From NCBI GenBank assembly GCA_963709345.1, contig CAVPVX010000001.1, forward strand, positions 32,001 to 96,000: a stretch of 64,000 bases of DNA, read 5' to 3'. How positions within the stretch are numbered: position 1 is the first letter of the stretch; every line of letters begins with the position of its first letter. The notes under the pieces were generated by a model that saw nothing but the letters and a program-made list of their open reading frames with translations, was not told the origin of the DNA and searched no databases. Shown here in pieces: positions 17,439 to 37,257 of this stretch. Source of the stretch: an uncultured Actinomycetes bacterium. GTDB lineage: Bacteria; Actinomycetota; Thermoleophilia; UBA2241. The translations under genes were made by a program, and so were the position numbers.

Positions 17439-18321
17439 TCAGGCGACCGGCGCCGGCACTCCCTGGAGGTGCCGGCGCCAGCCGAGCAGCAGCGCATGGG
17501 CCTGCTCGGCGCCGACGATCGGAGTCGCCGGGGCGGGTAGCGCGGCCGGATACAGCAGGAACGGCCGCGTCTGCGACCCGCCCATGCCGCCGTGGAACGA
17601 GATCAGCTCCTCGAAGGCGCAGCCCTCGTCCAGCTGCGCGTCGTAGAAGCTGTTGACCATGATATCGGCGACGTGCGCAAAGCCGTCGCTGCGCAGCAGG
17701 TGATGCGGCGCGGTGCTCGAGAAGCCAGCTAGGGGGTCCTCGCCCTCGACGCGCCCCTCGTCGAGGTAGTTGACCCCGTTCGCCCCGAGTACCAGCGCAC
17801 CATGCTCGCCCGAGCGCACCAGCAACCATCCGACGTGAGGGTGGGCGCGAAGGGCCGGGAGCAGTGCCGGATGCCGCTCCTCGATCTCCTCCATCCTGTA
17901 CCGGCGGTCCTTCTCCATCAGGTACACGAGCCCCAGGTTGCCGGAGCCGAGGACGATGACATCCTCGCCCCCGAGGTCGCTCGCGGCGGGACCCTCCTGC
18001 TCGCGGCCGGTGGCCTCACGCAAGGCCTTGGACACGGCCGAGTCGTTCTCATCGCCGGACGCGAGGCGGGCGACCGAGGCACCGCTCAGCGAACGCTTGA
18101 CCAGATCGTCCAAACCGTACCCGTTGCGCTGCTTGAAGGTCGCGCCCTGTGTCTGGCCGTGGTCGGAGAGGACGACGATCTCGTATGGCCGCGCTCGTGA
18201 CCCAGTGAACGAGCAGGCGGCGAAGGCGCATCCGGGGCCGCTCCGGCCGCCACTCCGGGACCGCCCCGTAGGCCGGATGCGCACAGCCGCCCCTGTCCCG
18301 ACCTCGTCGCTGCGGCTCCAT
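17439..18321 (-). pseudogene. Phage-holin-like/alkaline phosphatase fusion gene with a large internal deletion
   Basis: N-terminus MEPQ..WRPERPRMRLRRLLVHWVTS joined out of frame at ~18190 to RPYEIVVLSDHGQTQG..AFEELISFHGGMGG. Confidence 0.6.
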
Positions 18322-18353
18322 ACGAACCACCTGCCCAGCCTTCGCTCGCGGCG

Positions 18354-19908
18354 TCACTCCACCCCGTTGTCCTCGGCCTGCGGTTTGCGGAACGGCCACT
18401 CCCCGGCCACAAGGCTCAGAGCGCCCTCGAGAAGAACGGCCAACACAATGATCAGCACGATCCAGAGCCATGACCAACTGCCGAACGCCAGGAGCACGAG
18501 GCCGGCGATCAGGACCCCCCAGCGAAGCGCCTGCACGTGCCGCCACACCCAAGCCGTGAGCGGCCGTGCGGTGGTGACGTCGAAGTCGCTTCTGGAGACG
18601 ACACGCCTGCCCGTCTCCACGACGGCGACCTGCAGGTCGCGGCGCCCGGAGAACCAGGCGACCACGGCGACCACGGCGCCGATGACGACGATCCAGATGG
18701 TGATCGTGGTCAGAGGCCCGATGGCCGCGCCGACCACGTCCCTCGCCAGCCCCAGGCCACCGGCCCGTTCCAGGTCGTCGACGATCATGGCGGAACCGCG
18801 CCTGACGAGCACTCGTGTGACGATCAGCGCGATGGCAACGCCGACGCCGAGCTGGATGAGCGTGCGACGACGAGCGCGCGACAGCCAGACGGTCAGAGGC
18901 GATGAGCACGAGGGTGACGATGGGGATGACCCACGTGAGCGTGTCGAACCAGCGCACTGCCGTCTGGGCCGGCCCCAGAGAGTCCGATTTGAGCAGCGTG
19001 ACCTGGCCGAAGTCGTCCGGCAGGGGCCTGCCGGCCCATGACGAGACCTGGCCGATCGCCGTCGCCGGGTCGGTGCCGGGCTCGATCACCGGCGGGGCGA
19101 ACTTGTCGGCGAGCGCGCCCGGCAGCCTGCTGTCGAGCCACACGAGCGCCTGGCTGATGAGGGGCAGCGTGTCGAGCCTCACGTCGCTGCCCTCGATGTA
19201 GGCGTAGGTCGTGTCGCCGCGCAGCAGCGCCACGATCTTGTCGTGCGCCACCTCGTTGATCCTGAGCCACAGCTCGTACGCCTTGTCGCTGCTGAGCACT
19301 TTCTTCACGCCGTCGGTGAGGAAGTCGTCGACGGCTCCGGTGATCGGGCCGGCGAGGAACGACGCCTCTGGAGGCAGGGCATCCGCCGTCCGTCGCTGCA
19401 GGTCGGTGGCGGTCACCACCTCGCCGGCGATGTACTCGCTGAGCGCCTGGATCGCCTTCGGGTTCTTGCCGATGGGAGCGACCAGCTTCATGTAGCCGTC
19501 GGTGCTGAGGACCGAGTAGTGCGTCCAGATGGTGATGCCGCTCACCACGACGGCGAGACACGAGAGGATGACGAGGACGCCGACGAGGTAGCGGCGCCTG
19601 CGAAGACCCCCGCGACGGCCGGCAGGCTCCGCCTGCGGCTCGTCGACGGCCTTCGCAGTCGCCTCCTCGTCCGGCGCACGGGCAGCCGTCACCGCAGTCA
19701 CCGCCGTCGTCTCCGACGCAGTGGGGTCCGCAGCCGGGCGCGTTGCCTCTTCCAGGTCCGGCACGACCTCACCCGAGAGTTGCGTCCCGAGCGCCTCGTT
19801 CTCGGCCTCGAGTGCGGCGATCTTGTCGGCCAGCGCCTTCTGCTTCTTGAGGCTCGCGTTCCGCGCCTCGAGCGCCGCGAGCTGAGCGCGTAGTTCCTTC
19901 TCGTTCAT
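18354..19908 (-). CDS. Multi-pass membrane protein with N-terminal coiled coil (frameshift near 18897)
   Basis: Removing one T joins ..VTLVLIA to LTVWLSRARRRTLIQLGVG and the 18354-18812 ORF. Confidence 0.7.
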
Positions 19909-20030: not shown

Positions 20031-20531
20031 TCAGTCCTTGGCGTGCTTCTCGGTGCCGAAGGCCTTCTTGAGCTCCTCTTCCTGCTCCGTCGAGAGGTTG
20101 GAGCGTACCAGCTTGGCGTTGGTGCCCTGCACGGCGGCGAGGAACTTGTCCTCGGTCATCTGGCCGATGACGAGGAACCAGCCGGCCTTGCCCGGCGGTA
20201 CCGCGTCGCCCATCTGCTCGAGCACCTGCTTGTCGATGCCGGTCTTGCCCATCTTGCCGAAGAGGGCGCCCATGCCGGCGCCGATGGCGAGGCCGAGGAA
20301 CGGCATGAAGAAGAGCAGGCCGAAGAGCATGCCCCAGAAGGCGCCGCCGAGGGCTCCCGCGCCGACCAGCTTGGTGTCGTGCTTGACGTGCGGCTTGCCG
20401 TCCTCGTCGCGGACGACCATGGCGGCGTCCTGCAACTGCACGATCATGTCCTTCTGCAGCCCCGCCAGCGTAACGCCGAAGTCGTCGGCCGCAGCCTCGT
20501 TGTCGAATCCCAGGACCATCAGTTCGCTCAT
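20031..20531 (-). CDS. DUF1269 family membrane protein
   Basis: DAAMVVRDEDGK, GALGGAFWGMLFGLLF, glycine zipper; AAGGAG RBS. Confidence 0.88.
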   Translation of the reverse strand: MSELMVLGFDNEAAADDFGVTLAGLQKDMIVQLQDAAMVVRDEDGKPHVKHDTKLVGAGALGGAFWGMLFGLLFFMPFLGLAIGAGMGALFGKMGKTGIDKQVLEQMGDAVPPGKAGWFLVIGQMTEDKFLAAVQGTNAKLVRSNLSTEQEEELKKAFGTEKHAKD

Positions 20532-20702
20532 GTGCACTCCTTGTCGCTCTCGCCGAACACTGCATGATGCCCGTACGTCGCACGGGCCAAGCTGACCGTG
20601 ATGCTACCCCAACAGCGCGAACTGGACACCTGTGACGTGACCACATGGTCAGCCCGGAGCACGGCGGAGCGAATGGGCCGGCCCGACCAGGCAAGGCCGG
20701 GC

Positions 20703-21680
20703 TCAGCGAAAAGCGCCGGGTGCATCCTTGACGGCCCGGCTGAGGATGCGTCTGGCGTTCACGCTCTTGATGTGCGAGCCGTCGTAGAAACCCTCCGGCG
20801 TGCCGCCGAACGACTCGATCTCCGTGTAGTCGAGCAGATGGAAGTCGTACTCGCCCTCCAGGCCGCGCAGATACGCTGCGAAGCCGTCGGCCTTGGCCTG
20901 CCAGCCCACCTCGCGGAAGGCGGCGAGCGCCGTCGGGTGATACGGCATGATCACCAGCACCGGCTCGACGCCGTGCAGGTTGAACAGGCGGAGCGTGCGC
21001 TCGAAGTAGCGCCGGGCGCGTGTCTGCGGGTAGGCCGACGGAGTCGCGGCCCTGGGCGCCATGCGCGCCAGGTAGATCCGCATGGACTTCTCGAGCCCGA
21101 CTCCCTGTTCCTCCCGCTGGTCGTAGCTGTTGCGGAGCAGGGACCCACGGCCGCTGTACTCGTGATCCCACTGCACACCCGGCATCGGCTTCGCGCCAAG
21201 GGCGCGCTGGGCCGCGATCAGCTCAGCCGGCAGAAACCGCGTGAGTCGCTCCTCGCCGAGCAGCCCGGGGTGAAGCGGCGAGTCGACGAGCGTCGTCACC
21301 TGCAGCGCCCAGACGCAGCGGAGCTTGACCTCCGGATCTCGCCAGAAGAGGTGGCGCGTGATCGCGTAGACGTCCTCCGGGCGCGAGTTCTGGAGCGCGA
21401 AGTTGAAGGCCGGTAGGCCGGTCAGCCGCTCGACCACCGAGGGCTTGAAGCGCTGCGCCCGCGAGCCGCCGTAGATGACGAGCTCCGGCGGCTCCGGCAA
21501 GAACTCCACCCGGTCGCACTTGTAGGTGCGGTCGTACAGCGGCGGCACCGCGCCGCCGCGCCGGGCGGCGCCGGCCACCGGCGTCACCGCCCAGGCGCCG
21601 AAGACGACGCTCCCCACCGCGGCGAGCGCGGCGAGCGCGATCAAACGGGCGGTGACGATGCCTGTCGCGTGCGAGTGCAT
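20703..21680 (-). CDS. Exported SGNH-like protein
   Basis: Signal/anchor, IYGGSRA block I-like, FNFA, FYDGSH (DxxH); TACCAT-6 nt-ATG leaderless start. Confidence 0.6.
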   Translation of the reverse strand: MHSHATGIVTARLIALAALAAVGSVVFGAWAVTPVAGAARRGGAVPPLYDRTYKCDRVEFLPEPPELVIYGGSRAQRFKPSVVERLTGLPAFNFALQNSRPEDVYAITRHLFWRDPEVKLRCVWALQVTTLVDSPLHPGLLGEERLTRFLPAELIAAQRALGAKPMPGVQWDHEYSGRGSLLRNSYDQREEQGVGLEKSMRIYLARMAPRAATPSAYPQTRARRYFERTLRLFNLHGVEPVLVIMPYHPTALAAFREVGWQAKADGFAAYLRGLEGEYDFHLLDYTEIESFGGTPEGFYDGSHIKSVNARRILSRAVKDAPGAFR

Positions 21681-21788
21681 CCTTCGATGGTATGACGCCC
21701 GGCGACCCAGACAAAGCCGCGCCCAGGCACTGGCAGCCGCACCGAGGCAGGACGTAGACTGTCCGGGTACAGCGAACGGGGAGCGCGG

Positions 21789-22898
21789 GTGGCCGACGAA
21801 CAGGGGTTCACGTACAGGAAGGCGGGCGTCGACGTCGAGGCGGGCAACCGCGCCGTCGACCTGATGAAGCAGCGGCTGAGGAGCACGAAGAACCCTCTCG
21901 TGCTCGGCGGTCTCGGCGGGTTCGGCGGCGCCATGCGCCTGCCGCGCCTCAAGGATCCCGTCCTCGTCGCCGGCACCGACGGCGTCGGCACCAAGATCGA
22001 GATCGCCCGCCGCGTCGGCCGGCTGGACACCATCGGTATCGATCTCGTGGCGATGAGCGTCAACGACGTCTCCGCGTGCGGCGCCGTACCTCTCTTCTTT
22101 CTCGACTACCTCGTCGTCGGCTCCGTCGTGCCCGAAGAGGTCGCAGACATCGTCACTGGTGTCGACGAGGGATGTCTGCGCGCCCAGTGCGTCCTTCTCG
22201 GCGGCGAGACCGCCGAGCATCCGGGGCAGTTCCCCGACGGAGACTTCGACATGGCGGGCTTCGCCGTCGGCCTCGCCGAGCGCGACGACCTCTGGGGTCC
22301 TCAGTTGGTCAAGGACGGGGACGTGCTCGTCGGCATCGACTCGAGCGGTGTGCACAGCAACGGCTTCAGCCTCATCCGCCACCTGCTCGCCGAACACGCG
22401 ATCGACTTGGACAGCAACTTCATCGGCCAGGGCGGGGGCGTCGGCCTCTGCATCACGCCGAAGGAGGGGTTCGGGGCCTGCTACGACCCGCGCTCGACCG
22501 TCGGCGACGTGCTGCTCACGCCGACGGCCATCTACAGCCCCGTGCTGCACGACCTCGGGCACGCCGGCGGCATGCACGCCGCCGCGCACGTCACCGGCGG
22601 CGGCTTCCCCGACAACGTCGGCCGCGCCGTGCCGGGCGACCTGGCCGCCGTCATCGACCTCGCGAGCTGGACGCCGAGCCCGCTCTTCGGCTGGCTCCAC
22701 GGACTCGGCGTGCACCGCCCCGAGATGCTGAAGACCTTCAACTGTGGGCTCGGCATGGTCCTCGTGATGGATCCGGACCACGTGGAGAAGAACCTCATGA
22801 TCCTCGAGAAGGCCGGCCACGCCTCGCGCGTCGTCGGCGAGATCGTCCCCCGTGGCGACGGACCCGCCGTCACGTACAGCGGAGAGCTCCGCGTATGA
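21789..22898 (+). CDS. purM: Phosphoribosylformylglycinamidine cyclo-ligase (AIR synthetase)
   Basis: YRKAGVDV, GTDGVGTK, LFFLDY, GGETAEHPG, SSGVHSNGFSL, HVTGGG, FNCGLG. Confidence 0.97.
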   Translation: MADEQGFTYRKAGVDVEAGNRAVDLMKQRLRSTKNPLVLGGLGGFGGAMRLPRLKDPVLVAGTDGVGTKIEIARRVGRLDTIGIDLVAMSVNDVSACGAVPLFFLDYLVVGSVVPEEVADIVTGVDEGCLRAQCVLLGGETAEHPGQFPDGDFDMAGFAVGLAERDDLWGPQLVKDGDVLVGIDSSGVHSNGFSLIRHLLAEHAIDLDSNFIGQGGGVGLCITPKEGFGACYDPRSTVGDVLLTPTAIYSPVLHDLGHAGGMHAAAHVTGGGFPDNVGRAVPGDLAAVIDLASWTPSPLFGWLHGLGVHRPEMLKTFNCGLGMVLVMDPDHVEKNLMILEKAGHASRVVGEIVPRGDGPAVTYSGELRV

Positions 22899-23902
22899 GA
22901 CCGGTCGACCTGCTCGGCTGCGGAGCGCTCAACCTCGATCTGATCTACCGCCTACCCCCCAGCTTCCCGCTCTGGGACGAACTGGGGCCGCCGGGCGGCG
23001 AGCAGTTGATGGACGAGGCGGTGCGAAGAGCGGTCGAGGAGGCGCTGGCGCACGTCGCCCCGACGCGAGCCGGGGGCGGCCAGGCGTCCAACAGCGTGTA
23101 CGCCCTGGCCCGTCTGGGATACAGGGCCGCGATGGTCGGCCGCATAGGCGACGACGACGACGGCCTCTTCCTGCTGGGCGAACTGGATCCGGCCGACGCC
23201 CGGCTGGTCCACCGGGAGGGCGAGACCGGCCGGGTCTACGTTCTCCTGGACGAGCGGGGCGAGCGCCGCAACCTGGTGTGGCCGGCGGCGAACGACGCCT
23301 TCTCGCCGGCCAACCTCCCGAGGCGCCTGCCGCGTACCCGCTGCGCCCTCTTCACCAGCTTCGTCGGAGACGCGCCGCTCGAGGCCCAGCTGGCGCTGCT
23401 CGAACGGCTCCCCGCCGGCGTCGAGGTCGGCTTCGACCCCGGCGAGATCTACGCGCGAAAAGGCGTCAAGCGCTTTCTTCCGATCCTGCAGCGCTGCGCC
23501 TACCTCTTCTCGACCGAGACCGAGCTCGAGATGCTCTGCGGCCTCTCGCTGGCCGAGTCCATCGACTTCCTCCTCAACATCGGAGTTGGCCTCGTGATCG
23601 TCAAGATGGGCAGCCGGGGTGCCCGGCTGGTCGGCCGCCGCGTTGACCTCTACGTGCCGCCTCTGCCCGCGGATGTGGTCGACGTCACCGGCGCCGGCGA
23701 CCTGTTCGCCGCCGGCTTCATCGCCGGGATGCTCGAGCAGGTCGGCCTCGAGAGCGCCGGGCGCCTGGCCTCCTGGGCGGCGAGCCACGGCATCACCGGC
23801 CTCGGTCGCAGCACCTACCCCGACGCCGAGGCCTGGGGTCTGCGCCTTGCCGAGGAGCGCGGGGACGAGCGGCCGGCCGCGAACGGGCCGGGCGGAACGT
23901 GA
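22895..23902 (+). CDS. PfkB/ribokinase-family kinase
   Basis: GCGALNLD, GGGQASN, FDPG, VVDVTGAGDLFAAG; ATGA overlap with purM. Confidence 0.9.
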   Translation: MRPVDLLGCGALNLDLIYRLPPSFPLWDELGPPGGEQLMDEAVRRAVEEALAHVAPTRAGGGQASNSVYALARLGYRAAMVGRIGDDDDGLFLLGELDPADARLVHREGETGRVYVLLDERGERRNLVWPAANDAFSPANLPRRLPRTRCALFTSFVGDAPLEAQLALLERLPAGVEVGFDPGEIYARKGVKRFLPILQRCAYLFSTETELEMLCGLSLAESIDFLLNIGVGLVIVKMGSRGARLVGRRVDLYVPPLPADVVDVTGAGDLFAAGFIAGMLEQVGLESAGRLASWAASHGITGLGRSTYPDAEAWGLRLAEERGDERPAANGPGGT

Positions 23903-23921
23903 GCGGGGCGGAGGCGGGCAC

Positions 23922-24731
23922 GTGAGGGTCGGCTGGCTCTCCAGCGGCCGAGACCCAGCCGCCACCAATCTCCTCGCGGACGTCGTCGCGCGGGCGCAGC
24001 AGGACGGCGTCCCGCTCGAGATCGGCGCCGTCTTCAGCGACCGCGAGCGCGGCGAGGCGCCGGAGAGCGACCACTTCATCGACCTCGTCGAGCGACTCGA
24101 CCTGCCGCTCGTCACCTTATCGAGCGCCGCCAGCTGGGTCGAAGCCCAGAAGCTCGGCGTCTCCCGCTCCACGTGGCGCGAGGAGTATCACCGAGGCGTC
24201 ATGGACCTGCTGGTGCCACACCGCCTCGGCGTGCTGGTGATGGCCGGCTACATGCTCGTCGCCAGCCCGGCAATGTGCCGTAAGTTCGCCATCCTCAACC
24301 TCCACCCGGCTCTGCCAAGCGGACCCACCGGCACCTGGCAGGATGTCATCTGGCAGCTCCTCGACGACGAGGCCGACGCGACGGGCGCCATGGTCCACCT
24401 GGCGACGGCGCAACTCGACCGCGGTCCCGTCGTCAGCACCTTCCGTCTCTCCCTGCGCGGCGACGACTGGGAACCACTGTGGCGGCAGTTCCGGGAGAAG
24501 CGCGAGACAAAGAGCGTGTTGGAGATCGCCGCCGCGGAAGGCGAGACCGAGCCTCTGTTCGCCGAGATCCGCCGCCGCGGCGAGATCCGCGAAATACCGC
24601 TGCTCTACCAGACGCTGCGCCAGTTCGCCGAGGGCCGGCTCAACACCTCCAGCGGCGCCGTGTTCGCCGAGTCGGTCCGGCTGCCGCTCGACCTGACGGA
24701 GCTGGTCGACGAGGAGGTCCGGCAGCGATGA
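23922..24731 (+). CDS. Divergent PurN-like formyltransferase
   Basis: LVMAGYM, ILNLHPALP, GAMVH..LDRGP (Asn/His/Asp triad); N-terminal loop SSGRD instead of SGxGSN. Confidence 0.8.
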   Translation: MRVGWLSSGRDPAATNLLADVVARAQQDGVPLEIGAVFSDRERGEAPESDHFIDLVERLDLPLVTLSSAASWVEAQKLGVSRSTWREEYHRGVMDLLVPHRLGVLVMAGYMLVASPAMCRKFAILNLHPALPSGPTGTWQDVIWQLLDDEADATGAMVHLATAQLDRGPVVSTFRLSLRGDDWEPLWRQFREKRETKSVLEIAAAEGETEPLFAEIRRRGEIREIPLLYQTLRQFAEGRLNTSSGAVFAESVRLPLDLTELVDEEVRQR

Positions 24732-25813
24732 GCGCCGGTACGGCTGCACCGGCCGGCCCGCCGGCGACCACCGGCCGCATCTACGTCACCGACTGCGAGG
24801 GGCCGCTCACCAAGAACGACAACGCCCAGGAGATCGCGGAGCGCTTCATCCCTGAGGGAGCCGAGCTCTTCGCCAGGCTCAGCCGGTACGACGACTTCCT
24901 CGCCGACGTGCGCCGCAAGCCCGGCTACAACGCCGGCGACACCCTGCGCCTGCTGCCGCCGTTCCTCAAAGCGTTCTACGTCAGCGACGAGGACGTCGAG
25001 CTCTTCAGCGCCGAGGGCGTCCTGCTGGTGCCCAAGGCGCTGGAGGCGCTCGCCGCCGTCACCGCGCTGATGCCCGCGTACATCATCTCGACATCGTACA
25101 CGCCGTACCTCAGGGCGCTGTGCGAGCTGGCGGAGTTCCCCTTCGCGCGCGTCCGCTGCACCGAGCTCAGCCTGGACGCCTGGGAGATGCCCGAGGCGGA
25201 GGCTGTGTGGCTCCGCGAAGCCGCGGAGCAGGTGCTCGCCCGACCGGTGATCGACATCCCGGAGGGGGCGGTCGGCGAAGGCGACCTCACGCCCGACGAC
25301 AACGCGACGGTGGCCGAGCTCGACGACCTCTTCTGGGCGCGAATGATCGGCCGCGTGAGCGGCGAGATGGTGGCCGCCGTCCGCCCCGTGGGTGGCGGCC
25401 AGAAGCTCGCGGCGCTCGAGACGATCGTCGCTGCCGAGGGCGTCGCCGGAACCGGCGTCATGTACGTCGGCGATTCGATCACCGACGCGCCGCCGCTGGA
25501 GGCCGTCAGGGCCTGGGGCGGCGTCTCGCTCAGCTTCAACGGCAACGCCTACGCGATCGCAGCCGCGGAGTTCGCCGCCGCGAGCCCCGACGCGGACGTA
25601 CAGGCGCGGCTGGCGCAGGCGTTTGCGGAGGGCGGCCGTGACGCCGTGACCGCGGCCGTACGCGCCTGGCCGCAGACGAAGAAGGGCGTCCGGCCGGCCG
25701 GCCGGGCTCGCGCGCGCGTCGGCGTCGTCTCCGAAGAACGCGACGCGCTCACCGAGGCATCCGCCGCCACGCGGCGCCTGGTCCGCGGCGAGCGCGTGGC
25801 CCGCCTCGGCTGA
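24728..25813 (+). CDS. HAD-superfamily phosphohydrolase, COG4030/EhaR-like
   Basis: TDCEGPLTKNDNA, YDD..GYNAGDTLRL, ISTSY, VGGGQK, YVGDSITD, SFNGNAYA; ATGA overlap. Confidence 0.8.
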   Translation: MSAGTAAPAGPPATTGRIYVTDCEGPLTKNDNAQEIAERFIPEGAELFARLSRYDDFLADVRRKPGYNAGDTLRLLPPFLKAFYVSDEDVELFSAEGVLLVPKALEALAAVTALMPAYIISTSYTPYLRALCELAEFPFARVRCTELSLDAWEMPEAEAVWLREAAEQVLARPVIDIPEGAVGEGDLTPDDNATVAELDDLFWARMIGRVSGEMVAAVRPVGGGQKLAALETIVAAEGVAGTGVMYVGDSITDAPPLEAVRAWGGVSLSFNGNAYAIAAAEFAAASPDADVQARLAQAFAEGGRDAVTAAVRAWPQTKKGVRPAGRARARVGVVSEERDALTEASAATRRLVRGERVARLG

Positions 25814-25875
25814 GGGAGCGGCCGCCATGCCGCCGCCGGCCGTCTTGCCGCACCCCGCCGACCCGAAAGCCCCCC

Positions 25876-26700
<825 letters not shown>

Positions 26701-35715: not shown

Positions 35716-37257
35716 GTGAAGGTCAAGCGAGCCCTGATCTCGGTGTTCAACAAGAGCGGAGTAGAGTCGTTCGCCAAGGGCCTCACGAGCATGGGGGTCA
35801 CCGTGATCTCCACAGGCGGGACCGCCAAGCTCCTGAGGGACTCCGGCATACCCGTCACCCTCGTCGAAGAGGTCACCGGCTTCCCGGAGATGCTCGACGG
35901 CCGCGTCAAGACCATGCACCCCAAGCTCATGGCCGGCGTCCTGGCGCGCCGCGACGTGCCCGAGCACATGGAGACCATCGCCGAGCACGGCATCGAGCCC
36001 ATCGACATGGTCGTCTGCAGCCTCTACCCGTTCGAGGAGGTCGCGGGCAGGCGCGGCGTCGAGGACGAGGTCGTGATCGAGAACATCGACATCGGCGGGC
36101 CGAGCATGATCCGCGCCGCCGCCAAGAACCACGCCGGCGTCGCCGTCGTCACGAGCCACGACGACTACGACGATCTGCTCGAGGAGTTGCGCGAGTCCGG
36201 CGGCGAGCTCAGCCACACCACCCTCCGCGACCTTGCCACCAAGGCCTTCCACCGCACCGCGCACTACGACTTCGTCATCGCCAACTGGTTCAGCGAGGCG
36301 GAGGGCGACTTCCCCGACTACGTGATGCGCGACTACGAGAAGGTCCTCGAGCTCAAGTACGGCGAGAACCCGCACCAGCGCGCCGCCTACTACTCCGAGG
36401 TCGGCCTGCGCCAGCACCTGCTCTCGCAGGTGACCCAGCTGCACGGCAAGCAACTCGGCTTCAACAACCTCTACGACCTCAACGCCGCGCGCGCCATCTG
36501 CGACGAGTTCACGCTGCCGTGCGTCACCCTCATCAAGCACAACAACCCCTGCGGGTGCGCCCTCGCCGAGAACCTGGCGGCCGCCTACGACAAGGCGTTC
36601 GAGTGCGATCCCGTCAGCGCGTTCGGCAGCGTGATCGCCGTCAACCGCATCGTCGACGTCGCTCTGGCCGAGCGCCTCAGCGAGCTGTTCGTCGAGGTCC
36701 TCTTCGCGCCCGGCTACAAAGACGAGGCGCTGGAGATCCTCTCGCGCAAGGCCGACATCCGCATCCTCCGCAACGAGGAGCGCCGGCAGATCAACCCCGG
36801 CGAGTTCGACTACAAACGCGTCACCGGCGGCATCCTGGTCCAGGACAGGGACGGCGACATCGAGGAACGCGACGAGATGACGGTGGCCACCAAGCGCCAC
36901 CCCAGCGAGCAGGAGTGGGGCGACCTCATCTTCGCCTTCCGGGTCGCCAAGCACGTCAAGAGCAACGCCATCGTGATCGCGCGCAACCTTGCGACGCTCG
37001 GCGTAGGCGCCGGCCAGATGAGCCGCGTCGACAGCACCAAGGTCGCCATCGAGAAGGCGCGCGGCGACCTCGCGGGCGCGGTCGTCGGCTCCGACGCCTT
37101 CTTCCCGTTCCCCGACGCCGTCGACCTCGCGATCGACAGCGGCGTCACGGCGTTCATGCAGCCCGGCGGCTCCAAGGGTGACGTGACCGCCGCGGAGGCG
37201 TGCGACAAGCGCGGCGCCGCCATGGTCTTCACCGGCCGGCGCCACTTCCTGCACTGA
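35716..37257 (+). CDS. purH: Bifunctional AICAR transformylase / IMP cyclohydrolase
   Basis: [60 protein letters not shown]. Confidence 0.98.

What the first reader, a model, noticed from the sequence alone, without database searches (positions are those of the whole stretch)
21789..25813. purM operon with kinase + divergent PurN + EhaR-like phosphatase: candidate alternative route to FGAR via a dephosphorylated intermediate
Seen: purM, a PfkB kinase, a PurN-like formyltransferase and a COG4030-type HAD phosphatase are tightly packed (ATGA overlaps at 22895 and 24728, 19-bp gap before the formyltransferase) where purMN normally sits. The formyltransferase keeps NLHP and LDRGP, but its first loop reads SSGRDPAA instead of SGxGSN. 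Known: in canonical PurN that Gly-Ser-Asn loop binds the GAR phosphate; PfkB enzymes phosphorylate ribosides. From recollection, to be verified: the Methanothermobacter eha operon ends in ehaR (this HAD family), ehaS (Ftr-like formyltransferase) and ehaT (ribokinase-like), and those archaea lack clear purN/purT. Inference: the same phosphatase-formyltransferase-kinase trio with interchangeable formyltransferases suggests GAR -> glycinamide riboside -> formyl riboside -> FGAR. That would be an undescribed purine step 3, and EhaR would not be a hydrogenase subunit.
Basis: partly seen in the sequence, partly recalled or inferred. Interest (0 to 1): 0.82.

Follow-up and report, generated by a model that had tools for sequence, protein, structure and literature searches.

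The report
Three-gene substitute for purine enzyme PurN
A sugar-type kinase, an odd formyltransferase and a phosphatase-like protein sit together where the purine gene purN normally lies, and the same team recurs in bacteria and archaea that lack every known enzyme for that purine step, so it probably fills a gap open since 2011.

Summary
Four tightly packed + strand genes are present: purM, a PfkB kinase, a divergent PurN-like formyltransferase (PurN') and a HAD-fold protein of the AF1437/'EhaR' family.

The genome has purF, purD, purL, purH and formate-THF ligase, but no purN or purT above the curated cut-offs.

- In 401 genomes of the phylum, 13 carry the HAD, and all 13 lack PurN. Of the other 388, 375 have it.
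- In the window's own family, 9 of 11 genomes carry PurN'(-HAD) and no PurN. The two that lost PurN'-HAD have canonical PurN, yet keep the kinase.
- In 11 of 12 distant relatives the order is purM-PfkB-PurN'-HAD-purH, so the trio fills the purN slot.
- In Bathyarchaeia the commonest order is purF-purD-HAD-Ftr-like-PfkB (37 of 80 loci).
- The HAD also occurs fused to PurN' or to a PurT-like ATP-grasp enzyme.
- In 201 archaeal genomes, 81 of the 90 without PurN/PurT have the HAD, against 16 of the 111 with either. HAD and kinase occur together in 94.

The module is very probably an undescribed system for formylating GAR (about 0.85).

The parts
21789..22898 (+). purM (AIR synthetase), the only copy in the genome
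   Evidence: TIGR00878 353.5 bits against a cut-off of 236.35. One locus in the genome. 71% identical to the purM of same-genus G355.
22895..23902 (+). PfkB-family kinase of the EhaT type; its start overlaps the purM stop (ATGA)
   Evidence: PF00294 122.9 bits. No NCBIfam equivalog is reached; the best are ribose-1-phosphate kinase 100.8/330 and ribokinase 92.7/299.65. GALNLD and TGAGD can be read in the translation. It is the only hit in this genome for the Bathyarchaeial HAD-linked kinase.
23909..23913 (+). GGAGG, a ribosome-binding-site-like sequence 8 bases before the GTG start of PurN'
   Evidence: Read directly from the sequence. The inferred start matches the N-termini of homologues.
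23922..24731 (+). PurN' : a divergent PurN-fold formyltransferase of 269 aa. The catalytic Asn-His-Asp is kept and the GAR-phosphate loop is replaced by an invariant Arg-Asp.
   Evidence: TIGR00639 52.8 bits against a cut-off of 150.1. The model has pLDDT 92.2 and its top 7 PDB neighbours are all GAR transformylases. N126/H128/D166 and R10/D11 are invariant in 16 of 16 sequences. Loop comparison with canonical PurN.
24728..25813 (+). HAD-fold phosphohydrolase-like protein of the AF1437/'EhaR' family; its start overlaps the PurN' stop (ATGA)
   Evidence: PDB 1Y8A at E 8.6e-34. The model has pLDDT 92.1 and TM 0.80/0.91 to 1Y8A; the next neighbours are SerB-type HAD-IB phosphatases. Motifs DCEGP, STSY, GGxxK and GDSITD.
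35725..37254 (+). purH, about 10 kb downstream here. In 11 of 12 distant cassette carriers it lies directly after the HAD. It is context, not part of this operon.
   Evidence: TIGR00355 606.8 bits at G000:C1:67725-69254, which is window 35725-37254. Positions in relatives compared.

Best explanation
The four genes form one purine operon. In it, PfkB kinase + PurN' + HAD together take the place of purN and supply the third step of de novo purine synthesis, GAR -> FGAR.

PurN' is the formyl-transferring enzyme, presumably using 10-formyl-tetrahydrofolate, since the genome has formate-THF ligase and a folate-type PurH. Its GAR-phosphate loop is rebuilt, so it most likely acts on the dephosphorylated substrate. 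The proposed sequence is:
1. The HAD removes the 5'-phosphate of GAR.
2. PurN' formylates glycinamide riboside.
3. The kinase restores the 5'-phosphate with ATP, giving FGAR for PurL.

The same HAD-kinase pair works with an Ftr-like enzyme (EhaS type) or a PurT-like ATP-grasp enzyme in archaea.

Shown here: the genes, their conserved order, their place in purine operons, the gene fusions, the intact catalytic motifs, and the inverse distribution with purN/purT.

Inferred: that all three proteins are needed, their substrates, the order of the steps, and the formyl donor.

My odds are about 0.85 that the module is the GAR-formylating system of these organisms, and about 0.45 for the riboside route as written. 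The confidence given below is for the riboside route.
For: 1. The pathway is otherwise present, with a gap at step 3. PurF 516.8 bits, PurD 501.1, PurL in two pieces of 492 + 337 bits, PurM 353.5, PurH 606.8 and Fhs 835.7 are found. No PurN reaches its cut-off (best 52.7 bits, which is PurN' itself) and no PurT does either (best 44 bits).

2. Slot. In distant carriers the order is PfkB-PurN'-HAD in 10 of 10 loci with enough DNA. purM lies upstream in 7 of 9. purH lies directly downstream in 11 of 12; the twelfth is cut by a contig end.

3. Complementarity in the phylum sample. All 13 HAD carriers lack PurN, while 375 of 388 non-carriers have it. PurT is over its cut-off in 0 of the 12 other carriers.

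4. A natural swap inside the window's own family. Of 11 genomes, 9 have PurN' (HAD seen in 8; one contig ends first) and none of the 9 has PurN. G355 and G607 lack PurN'-HAD and are the only two with PurN, at 218.6 and 225 bits.

5. Archaeal purine operons. In the 80 best HAD loci, within 4.5 kb of the HAD lie PurD in 70, PfkB in 61, Ftr-like in 60, PurF in 55, PurQ in 45 and PurL in 42. The pattern purF-purD-HAD-Ftr'-PfkB with purQ and purL on the opposite strand just beyond occurs in 37 of 80. Of these genomes 38 were tested: 0 of 38 have PurN over its cut-off and 0 of 38 have PurT at E<=1e-30.

6. The archaeal phylum sample of 201 genomes. The HAD is present in 81 of the 90 without PurN/PurT and in 16 of the 111 with either. 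HAD and kinase occur together in 94, HAD alone in 3, kinase alone in 8, neither in 96.

7. Fusions and adjacency with three unrelated formylating folds. P0296 is a PurN'-HAD fusion. P0330 and P0363 are PurT-like ATP-grasp-HAD fusions. In L047 an ATP-grasp gene abuts the HAD. In G459 a PurT that passes the NF006766 cut-off (346.4 against 339) lies next to PfkB-HAD.

8. Chemistry is plausible. PurN' keeps Asn-His-Asp, but its phosphate loop G-[ST]-N is replaced by an invariant R-D. The HAD keeps the nucleophile Asp, Ser/Thr, Lys and the acidic pair: D-x-E in 99 of 112 and GDSITD in 99 of 112 full-length representatives. The kinase resembles ribokinases and nucleoside kinases.

9. The gap is real and was still open. 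Brown 2011 and Chadwick 2022 both report that no GAR formyltransferase has been identified in Methanobacteriales, Archaeoglobi and ANME-1 (passages).
Against: - No biochemical datum exists for any of the three proteins.
- The kinase is retained next to purM in the two family members that lost PurN'-HAD and gained PurN. Between those two genomes its dN/dS is 0.26, so it has some use without the other two.
- 16 of 97 HAD-carrying archaeal genomes also have PurN or PurT. Of the 15 with PurN, 11 show the HAD-PfkB pair in the DNA fetched. The module is therefore not strictly an alternative to PurN.
- In 18 of 40 archaeal loci fetched, the HAD has no adjacent kinase, and an Ftr-like gene is adjacent in only 3.
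- The invariant Arg of the rebuilt loop could still bind a phosphate, so the loop change does not prove a phosphate-free substrate.
- The route costs one ATP per purine with no obvious gain where 10-formyl-THF is available.
- The counts come from related genomes and from MAGs of varied completeness. They overstate statistical weight, and absences rest on curated score cut-offs.
Confidence: 0.45

Rival explanations
1. PurN' is a self-sufficient, merely divergent GAR transformylase that acts on GAR itself. The HAD and the kinase form an accessory valve: the HAD spills excess GAR or another intermediate as riboside, and the kinase salvages ribosides back into the pathway.
For: The catalytic triad and the PurN fold are intact. 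Arg10 could bind the phosphate. The kinase persists without HAD and PurN' in G355 and G607. The module coexists with PurN or PurT in 16 archaeal genomes. A PfkB kinase for a purine-intermediate riboside is known: aminoimidazole riboside kinase, PDB 1TYY. That identity is recalled; the chain matches the kinase at E 1.3e-13.
Against: A generic valve should also occur where PurN or PurT do the job. Yet the HAD is in 16 of 111 such archaeal genomes against 81 of 90 without them, and in 0 of 375 PurN-bearing genomes of the phylum sample. The HAD was lost together with PurN' in both swaps. The HAD is fused to the formylating enzyme in two different fold contexts. Ftr-like and PurT-like partners would each have had to acquire the same accessory pair independently.
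Confidence: 0.25
2. Phosphate parking. The HAD takes the 5'-phosphate of GAR onto its own aspartate, as HAD phosphomutases do. The bound riboside is formylated by the attached or fused formyltransferase, and the phosphate is then handed back. No ATP is spent in the main path. The kinase only recovers ribosides that escape.
For: The HAD is fused or translationally coupled to the formylating enzyme. Motif I is D-x-E rather than the D-x-D of phosphatases in 99 of 112 representatives. The kinase is separable from the other two. This route avoids an ATP cost.
Against: No precedent is known to me. The nearest structural neighbours after 1Y8A are plain phosphatases of the SerB type. The near-perfect HAD-kinase co-occurrence (94 together, 3 and 8 apart) suggests the kinase belongs to the main path.
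Confidence: 0.12
3. Kinase-first handle. The kinase adds a second phosphate to GAR or to an earlier ribose compound, the formyltransferase needs that extra phosphate (bound by Arg10), and the HAD removes it afterwards. Methylthioribose kinase and the MtnX phosphatase bracket steps of methionine salvage in a similar way (recalled).
For: The invariant Arg in the rebuilt loop. The best NCBIfam match of the kinase is a ribose-1-phosphate kinase that makes a bisphosphate, at 100.8 bits, far below its cut-off of 330. MtnX is among the distant structural neighbours of the HAD.
Against: The invariant Asp next to that Arg would repel a second phosphate. All the closest kinase relatives act on a primary 5-hydroxyl, which GAR no longer has free. 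The gene order in archaea is HAD, formyltransferase, kinase, though this is weak evidence.
Confidence: 0.08
4. The kinase and the HAD are unrelated neighbours, for example in pentose-phosphate or nucleoside metabolism, and only PurN' concerns purines.
For: In the Halobacteriota-type sample the wider neighbourhood is heterogeneous: CBS proteins, a GTPase, an amidohydrolase, ProRS and others.
Against: The order is conserved across phyla and domains at 31-47% identity. There are overlapping start and stop codons and fusions. The distribution is inverse to PurN/PurT.
Confidence: 0.03

Closest known systems
PurN, folate-dependent GAR transformylase (E. coli 1CDE/1GAR, human GART domain)
   Same: Same fold: the top 7 PDB neighbours of the PurN' model are PurN, with TM on the target of 0.71-0.78. 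The Asn-His-Asp catalytic residues and the AGYM/NLHP folate-side motifs are the same. It occupies the same operon slot between purM and purH.
   Different: It scores a third of the family cut-off (52.8 against 150.1 bits). The G-[ST]-N loop, which binds the GAR phosphate in PurN (role recalled), is replaced by an invariant R-D plus a 4-residue insertion. It is longer, at 269 aa, with a variable insert and a C-terminal extension. It is always accompanied by a HAD and nearly always by a PfkB kinase.
PurT, formate- and ATP-dependent GAR transformylase
   Same: It performs the same pathway step at the cost of one ATP. A PurT that passes the NF006766 cut-off lies next to PfkB-HAD in G459, and PurT-like ATP-grasp domains are fused to the HAD in P0330 and P0363.
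   Different: The window has no ATP-grasp gene of this kind. The fused ATP-grasp parts match PurT only locally (about 33 bits) and are about 550-590 aa long.
EhaR-EhaS-EhaT, the last genes of the eha operon of Methanothermobacter
   Same: The same three kinds of protein. EhaS was annotated as an Ftr-type formyltransferase and EhaT as a ribokinase, and both are cotranscribed with eha (Kaster 2011, passages). JGI names homologues of the window's HAD 'energy-converting hydrogenase A subunit R'. Methanobacteriales lack purN and purT (Brown 2011, passages).
   Different: Here the formyltransferase is PurN-like rather than Ftr-like, and the genes sit in a purine operon with no hydrogenase. I could not fetch the Methanothermobacter proteins, so their homology to the window's proteins rests on names and on the Bathyarchaeial and Halobacteriota-type examples.
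AF1437 of Archaeoglobus fulgidus (PDB 1Y8A), a structural-genomics protein of unknown function
   Same: Same family as the window's HAD: E 8.6e-34, TM 0.80/0.91, motif I D-x-E-G-P. Brown 2011 lists the Archaeoglobi among the archaea without purN/purT.
   Different: No function is assigned to it. Its genomic neighbours were not examined here.
Aminoimidazole riboside kinase of Salmonella (PfkB family; PDB 1TYY; identity recalled)
   Same: A PfkB kinase that returns the riboside of a purine intermediate to the nucleotide level. It is among the kinase's PDB matches at E 1.3e-13.
   Different: It is a salvage enzyme and not part of the main path. It is no closer to the window's kinase than ordinary ribokinases are, all at about 50-60 bits.

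Membership tests
PurN (TIGR00639, GAR transformylase) | Score at or above the curated family cut-off of 150.1 bits | tested here: not met
   52.8 bits. The same holds for orthologues in all other carriers, whose best E-values are 1e-14 to 1e-23.
PurN (TIGR00639, GAR transformylase) | Catalytic Asn, His and Asp (E. coli N106, H108, D144; numbering recalled) | tested here: met
   N126, H128 and D166 are invariant in 16 of 16 sequences. They align with NIHPS and ELDGGPV of E. coli PurN. NLHPA + LDxG is present in 120 of 120 close homologues.
PurN (TIGR00639, GAR transformylase) | PurN fold | tested here: met
   The model has pLDDT 92.2, and Foldseek ranks 1-7 are all GAR transformylases.
PurN (TIGR00639, GAR transformylase) | N-terminal S-G-x-G-[ST]-N loop that holds the GAR phosphate (role recalled) | tested here: not met
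   It reads SGRDPA plus a 4-residue insertion, against SGSGTN/SGSGSN in the canonical PurN of G355 and G607. R-D is found in 116 of 120 close homologues.
PurN (TIGR00639, GAR transformylase) | Formylates GAR with 10-formyl-THF | not testable with these tools
   Needs an enzyme assay or complementation.
PfkB carbohydrate/nucleoside kinases (PF00294) | Pfam score over the cut-off, plus the ribokinase-type motifs: N-terminal G-x-x-N-x-D and C-terminal G-A-G-D (motifs recalled) | tested here: met
   122.9 bits against 25.8. GALNLD and TGAGD can be read. No NCBIfam equivalog cut-off is reached, so the substrate is not assigned.
HAD superfamily phosphohydrolases | Four motifs: D-x-D-x-[TV], S/T, K and an acidic pair | tested here: inconclusive
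   The nucleophile Asp, STSY, GGxxK and GDSITD are present, but the second acidic residue of motif I is Glu (D-C-E-G-P). D-x-E is found in 99 of 112 full-length representatives. The fold is HAD type IB. No Pfam HAD model is reached by the window protein itself.
   1Y8A at E 8.6e-34 over residues 16-306, with TM 0.80/0.91. JGI names. The COG number and the Methanothermobacter EhaR sequence itself were not checked.
PurM (TIGR00878) | Score over the curated cut-off | tested here: met
   353.5 bits against 236.35.
Subunit of energy-converting hydrogenase Eha | Encoded with, and dependent on, the membrane-bound Eha complex | tested here: not met
   The HAD lies in purine operons of bacteria and Bathyarchaeia, with no hydrogenase gene among the neighbours examined. 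Whether these genomes encode Eha elsewhere was not searched.

The most novel reading that the evidence does not exclude
A riboside-level shunt is the long-sought 'missing GAR transformylase' of Methanobacteriales, Archaeoglobi, ANME-1, Bathyarchaeia and several bacterial lineages. A HAD takes the phosphate off GAR, one of three unrelated enzymes (PurN-like, Ftr-like, PurT-like) adds the formyl group, and a PfkB kinase puts the phosphate back. On this reading EhaR, EhaS and EhaT are purine enzymes and not hydrogenase subunits. De novo purine synthesis would then have a third, three-enzyme form of step 3 that passes through nucleoside intermediates.
Probability: 0.4. Interest if true: 0.92.

Novelty: new variant of a known kind. 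Interest (0 to 1): 0.88.

Why it matters
Step 3 of purine synthesis is textbook chemistry with two known enzymes, PurN and PurT. Since 2011 it has been on record that purine-prototrophic archaea such as Methanothermobacter have neither (Brown 2011). Chadwick 2022 still calls the enzyme unidentified.

The module described here is a concrete candidate that can be tested directly:
- It sits in the purN slot or between purD and purL.
- It is present in 81 of 90 sampled archaeal genomes that lack PurN and PurT.
- It recurs with three different formyl-transferring folds.

If confirmed, several things would follow:
- It would close a gap in metabolic reconstructions of methanogens, Bathyarchaeia, ANME and several uncultured bacterial groups, which would otherwise be called purine auxotrophs.
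- It would re-annotate EhaR/S/T and the structural-genomics protein AF1437.
- It would show that a central pathway can pass through dephosphorylated intermediates.

Tried and rejected
- **AICAR-step reading rejected.** The idea was that the trio replaces PurH and formylates AICAR by way of its riboside. All 13 carriers have a full PurH over its cut-off.
- **Chimeric bin or transferred contig rejected.** The purM of the cassette is 71% identical to that of same-genus G355, and the cassette is present in 9 of 11 genomes of the family.
- **Complex prediction of PurN' with the HAD**: no verdict, score 0.00 against a mark of 0.32. This counts neither for nor against binding.
- **Search for longer fused forms of the HAD**. 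It found one 682-aa protein, whose extra 330 residues match no Pfam family and do not match PurN'. It is probably a read-through and was not used.
- **First alignment of 27 HAD sequences** was too diverse for the search for related loci. An 11-sequence alignment was used instead.
- **NCBIfam has no model for the HAD family**, so the 14 named control genomes could not be queried for it.
The eha-operon trio itself was therefore not inspected.
- **Regulatory elements near the operon.** Rfam found nothing at 20400-26000. The promoter/terminator scan found no promoter-like site and one terminator-like site inside purM, no more than the shuffles give.
- **Literature.** Searches found no paper proposing this route. 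The terms were ehaR/ehaS/ehaT; COG4030; AF1437; Ftr-like; glycinamide riboside; formylmethanofuran with GAR formyltransferase; glycinamide ribonucleotide with methanofuran; and missing GAR formyltransferase with Methanobacteriales. Subscription journals are not in that library.

Full report
**What is in the window.** Four + strand ORFs fill 21789-25813.

- purM, 21789-22898: TIGR00878 353.5 bits against a cut-off of 236.35.
- A PfkB kinase, 22895-23902: PF00294 122.9 bits. No NCBIfam equivalog is reached; the best are a ribose-1-phosphate kinase model at 100.8/330 and ribokinase at 92.7/299.65.
- A PurN-like formyltransferase, here called PurN', 23922-24731: PF00551 33.9 bits, TIGR00639 52.8 bits against a cut-off of 150.1.
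- A HAD-like protein, 24728-25813: no Pfam hit, HAD-IB 16.5/45.

The flanking genes are unrelated: DUF1269, an ABC ATPase, TetR, radical SAM and an FMN reductase. No Rfam family and no promoter-like site were found.

**The pathway around it.** The genome is 3.11 Mb in 11 contigs and 98% complete.

- Present: PurF (516.8 bits), PurD (501.1), PurL (two adjacent pieces in different frames, 492 + 337 bits), one purM, PurH (606.8, about 10 kb downstream in the window) and formate-THF ligase (835.7).
- Not found above the cut-off: PurN (the best match, 52.7 bits, is PurN' itself) and PurT (best 44 bits).

Every step has a candidate except step 3, whose only candidate is PurN', and 10-formyl-THF should be available.

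**What the three proteins look like.**

- *PurN'.* The model has pLDDT 92.2, and its seven best PDB neighbours are all GAR transformylases; PurU, Fmt and sugar formyltransferases rank lower. Asn126, His128 and Asp166 are invariant in 16 of 16 diverse members. They align with the catalytic residues of E. coli PurN, whose numbering and roles I recall. The N-terminal loop differs. Canonical PurN of two same-genus genomes reads SGSGTN/SGSGSN, while PurN' reads SGRDPA plus four extra residues. The R-D pair is invariant in 16 of 16 and is present in 116 of 120 close homologues.
- *HAD.* It matches PDB 1Y8A (AF1437 of Archaeoglobus fulgidus, function unknown) at E 8.6e-34. The model has pLDDT 92.1 and superposes on 1Y8A with TM 0.80/0.91. 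The next neighbours are SerB-type HAD-IB phosphatases. Its motifs are D-C-E-G-P, STSY, GGxxK and GDSITD. D-x-E and GDSITD each occur in 99 of 112 full-length representatives.
- *Kinase.* It carries GALNLD and TGAGD. It is equally distant, at about 50-60 bits, from ribokinases, YdjH, the MJ0406 nucleoside kinase and 1TYY.

**Conservation in bacteria.**

In 401 genomes sampled from the phylum, the HAD gives strong matches (E <= 1.6e-48) in 13, the window's genome included, and seven further weak matches (E 5e-5 to 9e-4) that I disregard. Around the 12 other carriers:

- PfkB-PurN'-HAD lie in that order in 10 of 10 loci with enough DNA.
- purM is directly upstream in 7 of 9.
- purH is directly downstream in 11 of 12; the twelfth is cut by a contig end.

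Identities to the window's proteins are 31-47%. The trio therefore occupies the purN slot of a purM-purN-purH operon. That this is the classical order is my recollection.

PurN is over its cut-off in 375 of the 401 genomes. All 13 carriers are among the 26 without it. PurT is over its cut-off in 0 of 20 genomes tested, which include the 12 other carriers. These tallies include 15 genomes flagged as unpublished (G001, G018, G048, G082, G088, G120, G148, G174, G226, G239, G268, G318, G336, G343, G391). None of them is a carrier. G082 is one of the 13 non-carriers without PurN, and G391 gave one of the weak HAD matches.

**A natural swap in the window's own family.** A class-level sample of 61 genomes has the kinase orthologue in all 11 genomes of the family and in 0 of 50 from other families. 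In all 11 it follows purM.

- PurN' follows the kinase in 9. The HAD is seen after it in 8; one contig ends first.
- The two exceptions, G355 and G607, are 1.7-1.8 Mb genomes of the same genus. They are the only two with canonical PurN, at 218.6 and 225 bits.

PurN'-HAD and PurN thus replace each other. The kinase stays, and its dN/dS between the two swapped genomes is 0.26, against 0.11-0.32 in the four other pairs computed. This is the main result that does not fit a strict three-enzyme path.

**Archaea.**

- *Spread of the family.* The HAD family has 561 representatives at E <= 0.001, of which 410 are at E <= 1e-10. A scan of species genomes found 566 relatives. The 80 best are mostly Bathyarchaeia, with ANME-2, Methanomassiliicoccales, Aenigmatarchaeota, Thorarchaeota and a Syntrophobacterales MAG.
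- *Gene context.* Within 4.5 kb of the HAD in those 80 loci lie PurD in 70, PfkB in 61, an Ftr-like gene in 60, PurF in 55, PurQ in 45 and PurL in 42. PurN' is there in 3 (one of them a Methanomassiliicoccales MAG) and an ATP-grasp gene in 1. In 37 of 80 the pattern is purF-purD-HAD-Ftr'-PfkB, followed by purQ and purL on the other strand.
- *The Ftr-like gene.* It has both FTR domains. It is a second copy in 4 of 5 genomes checked.
- *PurN and PurT in these genomes.* Of 38 genomes tested, 0 have PurN over its cut-off and 0 have PurT at E <= 1e-30.

**A second archaeal test with internal variation.** A sample of 201 genomes was drawn from the phylum of an ANME-2 genome.

- The HAD is in 97, PurN (E <= 1e-25) in 98, and a PurT of 340 bits or more, or a truncated one, in 15.
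- Cross-tabulated: HAD with neither enzyme 81, HAD with one 16, no HAD and neither 9, no HAD with one 95.
- The HAD-linked kinase is in 102: both proteins 94, HAD alone 3, kinase alone 8, neither 96.
- In 40 loci fetched, HAD and PfkB are adjacent or overlapping in 22. An Ftr-like gene adjoins them in 3. The wider neighbourhood is heterogeneous.

These genomes are related to one another and many are MAGs, so the counts show a pattern and are not independent tests.

**Fusions and a third partner.**

- P0296 (599 aa) is a PurN'-HAD fusion with both motif sets intact.
- P0330 (899 aa) and P0363 (961 aa) join a 540-590 aa ATP-grasp part, with a local PurT-type match of about 33 bits, to the HAD.
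- In an Aenigmatarchaeota contig a 556-aa ATP-grasp gene abuts the HAD.
- In G459 a PurT that passes the NF006766 cut-off (346.4 against 339) lies next to PfkB-HAD.

The HAD-kinase pair is thus tied to three unrelated ways of adding a formyl group.

**Literature.**

- Brown 2011 (PMC3261824, passages) could not identify purN or purT in seven archaeal species. [quoted passage not shown] The four it goes on to discuss are M. thermautotrophicus, Methanosphaera stadtmanae and two Methanobrevibacter species, which I recall as Methanobacteriales. It stresses that M. thermautotrophicus is a purine prototroph.
- Chadwick 2022 (PMC9012536, passages) says the enzyme is still unidentified and that ANME-1 also lacks both.
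- Eight searches found no paper that links these genes to purine synthesis.

**Reading.** That the module is the GAR-formylating system of these organisms seems to me very likely (about 0.85).

It agrees with the rebuilt phosphate loop of PurN' and with a kinase of the ribose/nucleoside type. I put it at about 0.45.
- *Rivals.* A self-sufficient PurN' with a spill-and-salvage pair (0.25); phosphate parking on the HAD with the kinase as rescue (0.12); a kinase-first extra phosphate handle (0.08); coincidence (0.03).
- *What limits the favoured reading.* The retained kinase in the two swapped genomes and the 16 archaeal genomes that have both systems are the main facts against it. No assay exists for any of the three proteins.

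**Novelty.** The folds and the overall reaction are known. New here are the three-protein make-up, the interchangeable formylating member and the link to the missing archaeal step 3. I found none of these in print, so I file it as a new variant of a known kind.

Noticed in passing
G000:C6:8692-10495 (outside the window): PurL (FGAM synthase II) matches as two adjacent pieces in different frames, model positions 1-308 and 308-597, meeting at about C6:9573. This is either a frameshift in the assembly or a broken or split gene.
   Followed up: no
L197 (G355:C1:157070-161137) and L207 (G607): Two same-genus genomes of 1.7-1.8 Mb keep purM-PfkB with overlapping codons but have no PurN' or HAD after it. 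In G355 the next gene encodes a repetitive 'EKAEPAI' protein.
   Followed up: partly
P0352, P0369, P0381 (HAD-family representatives): Three divergent members lack the nucleophile Asp of motif I (NCEGS, NCEGF, GCHGP) and have altered motif IV. They may be inactive paralogues.
   Followed up: no
Archaeal genomes G605, G408, G577, G448 (TAA) and G559, G426, G491 (TAG): The match to the HAD-linked kinase contains one in-frame stop in seven of the 102 genomes with a match. The cause was not examined; it could be a pseudogene, an alignment running past the gene end, or a recoded stop.
   Followed up: no
G480:C1:946200-949046 (L164) and G496 (L165): Two genomes of about 1.0 Mb carry HAD-PfkB-Ftr-like in a row and also a canonical PurN. 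In G480 the HAD-linked Ftr is the only FTR_C match in the genome.
   Followed up: partly
P0397: A 682-aa protein with the HAD at its N-terminus and 330 further residues that match nothing. It is probably a read-through in GC-rich DNA.
   Followed up: yes
window 18049-19908 (-): A 619-aa ORF with no Pfam match. Its N-terminus looks coiled-coil-like, and much of its C-terminal part is Arg/Gly-rich, which may be a frame artefact of GC-rich DNA.
   Followed up: no
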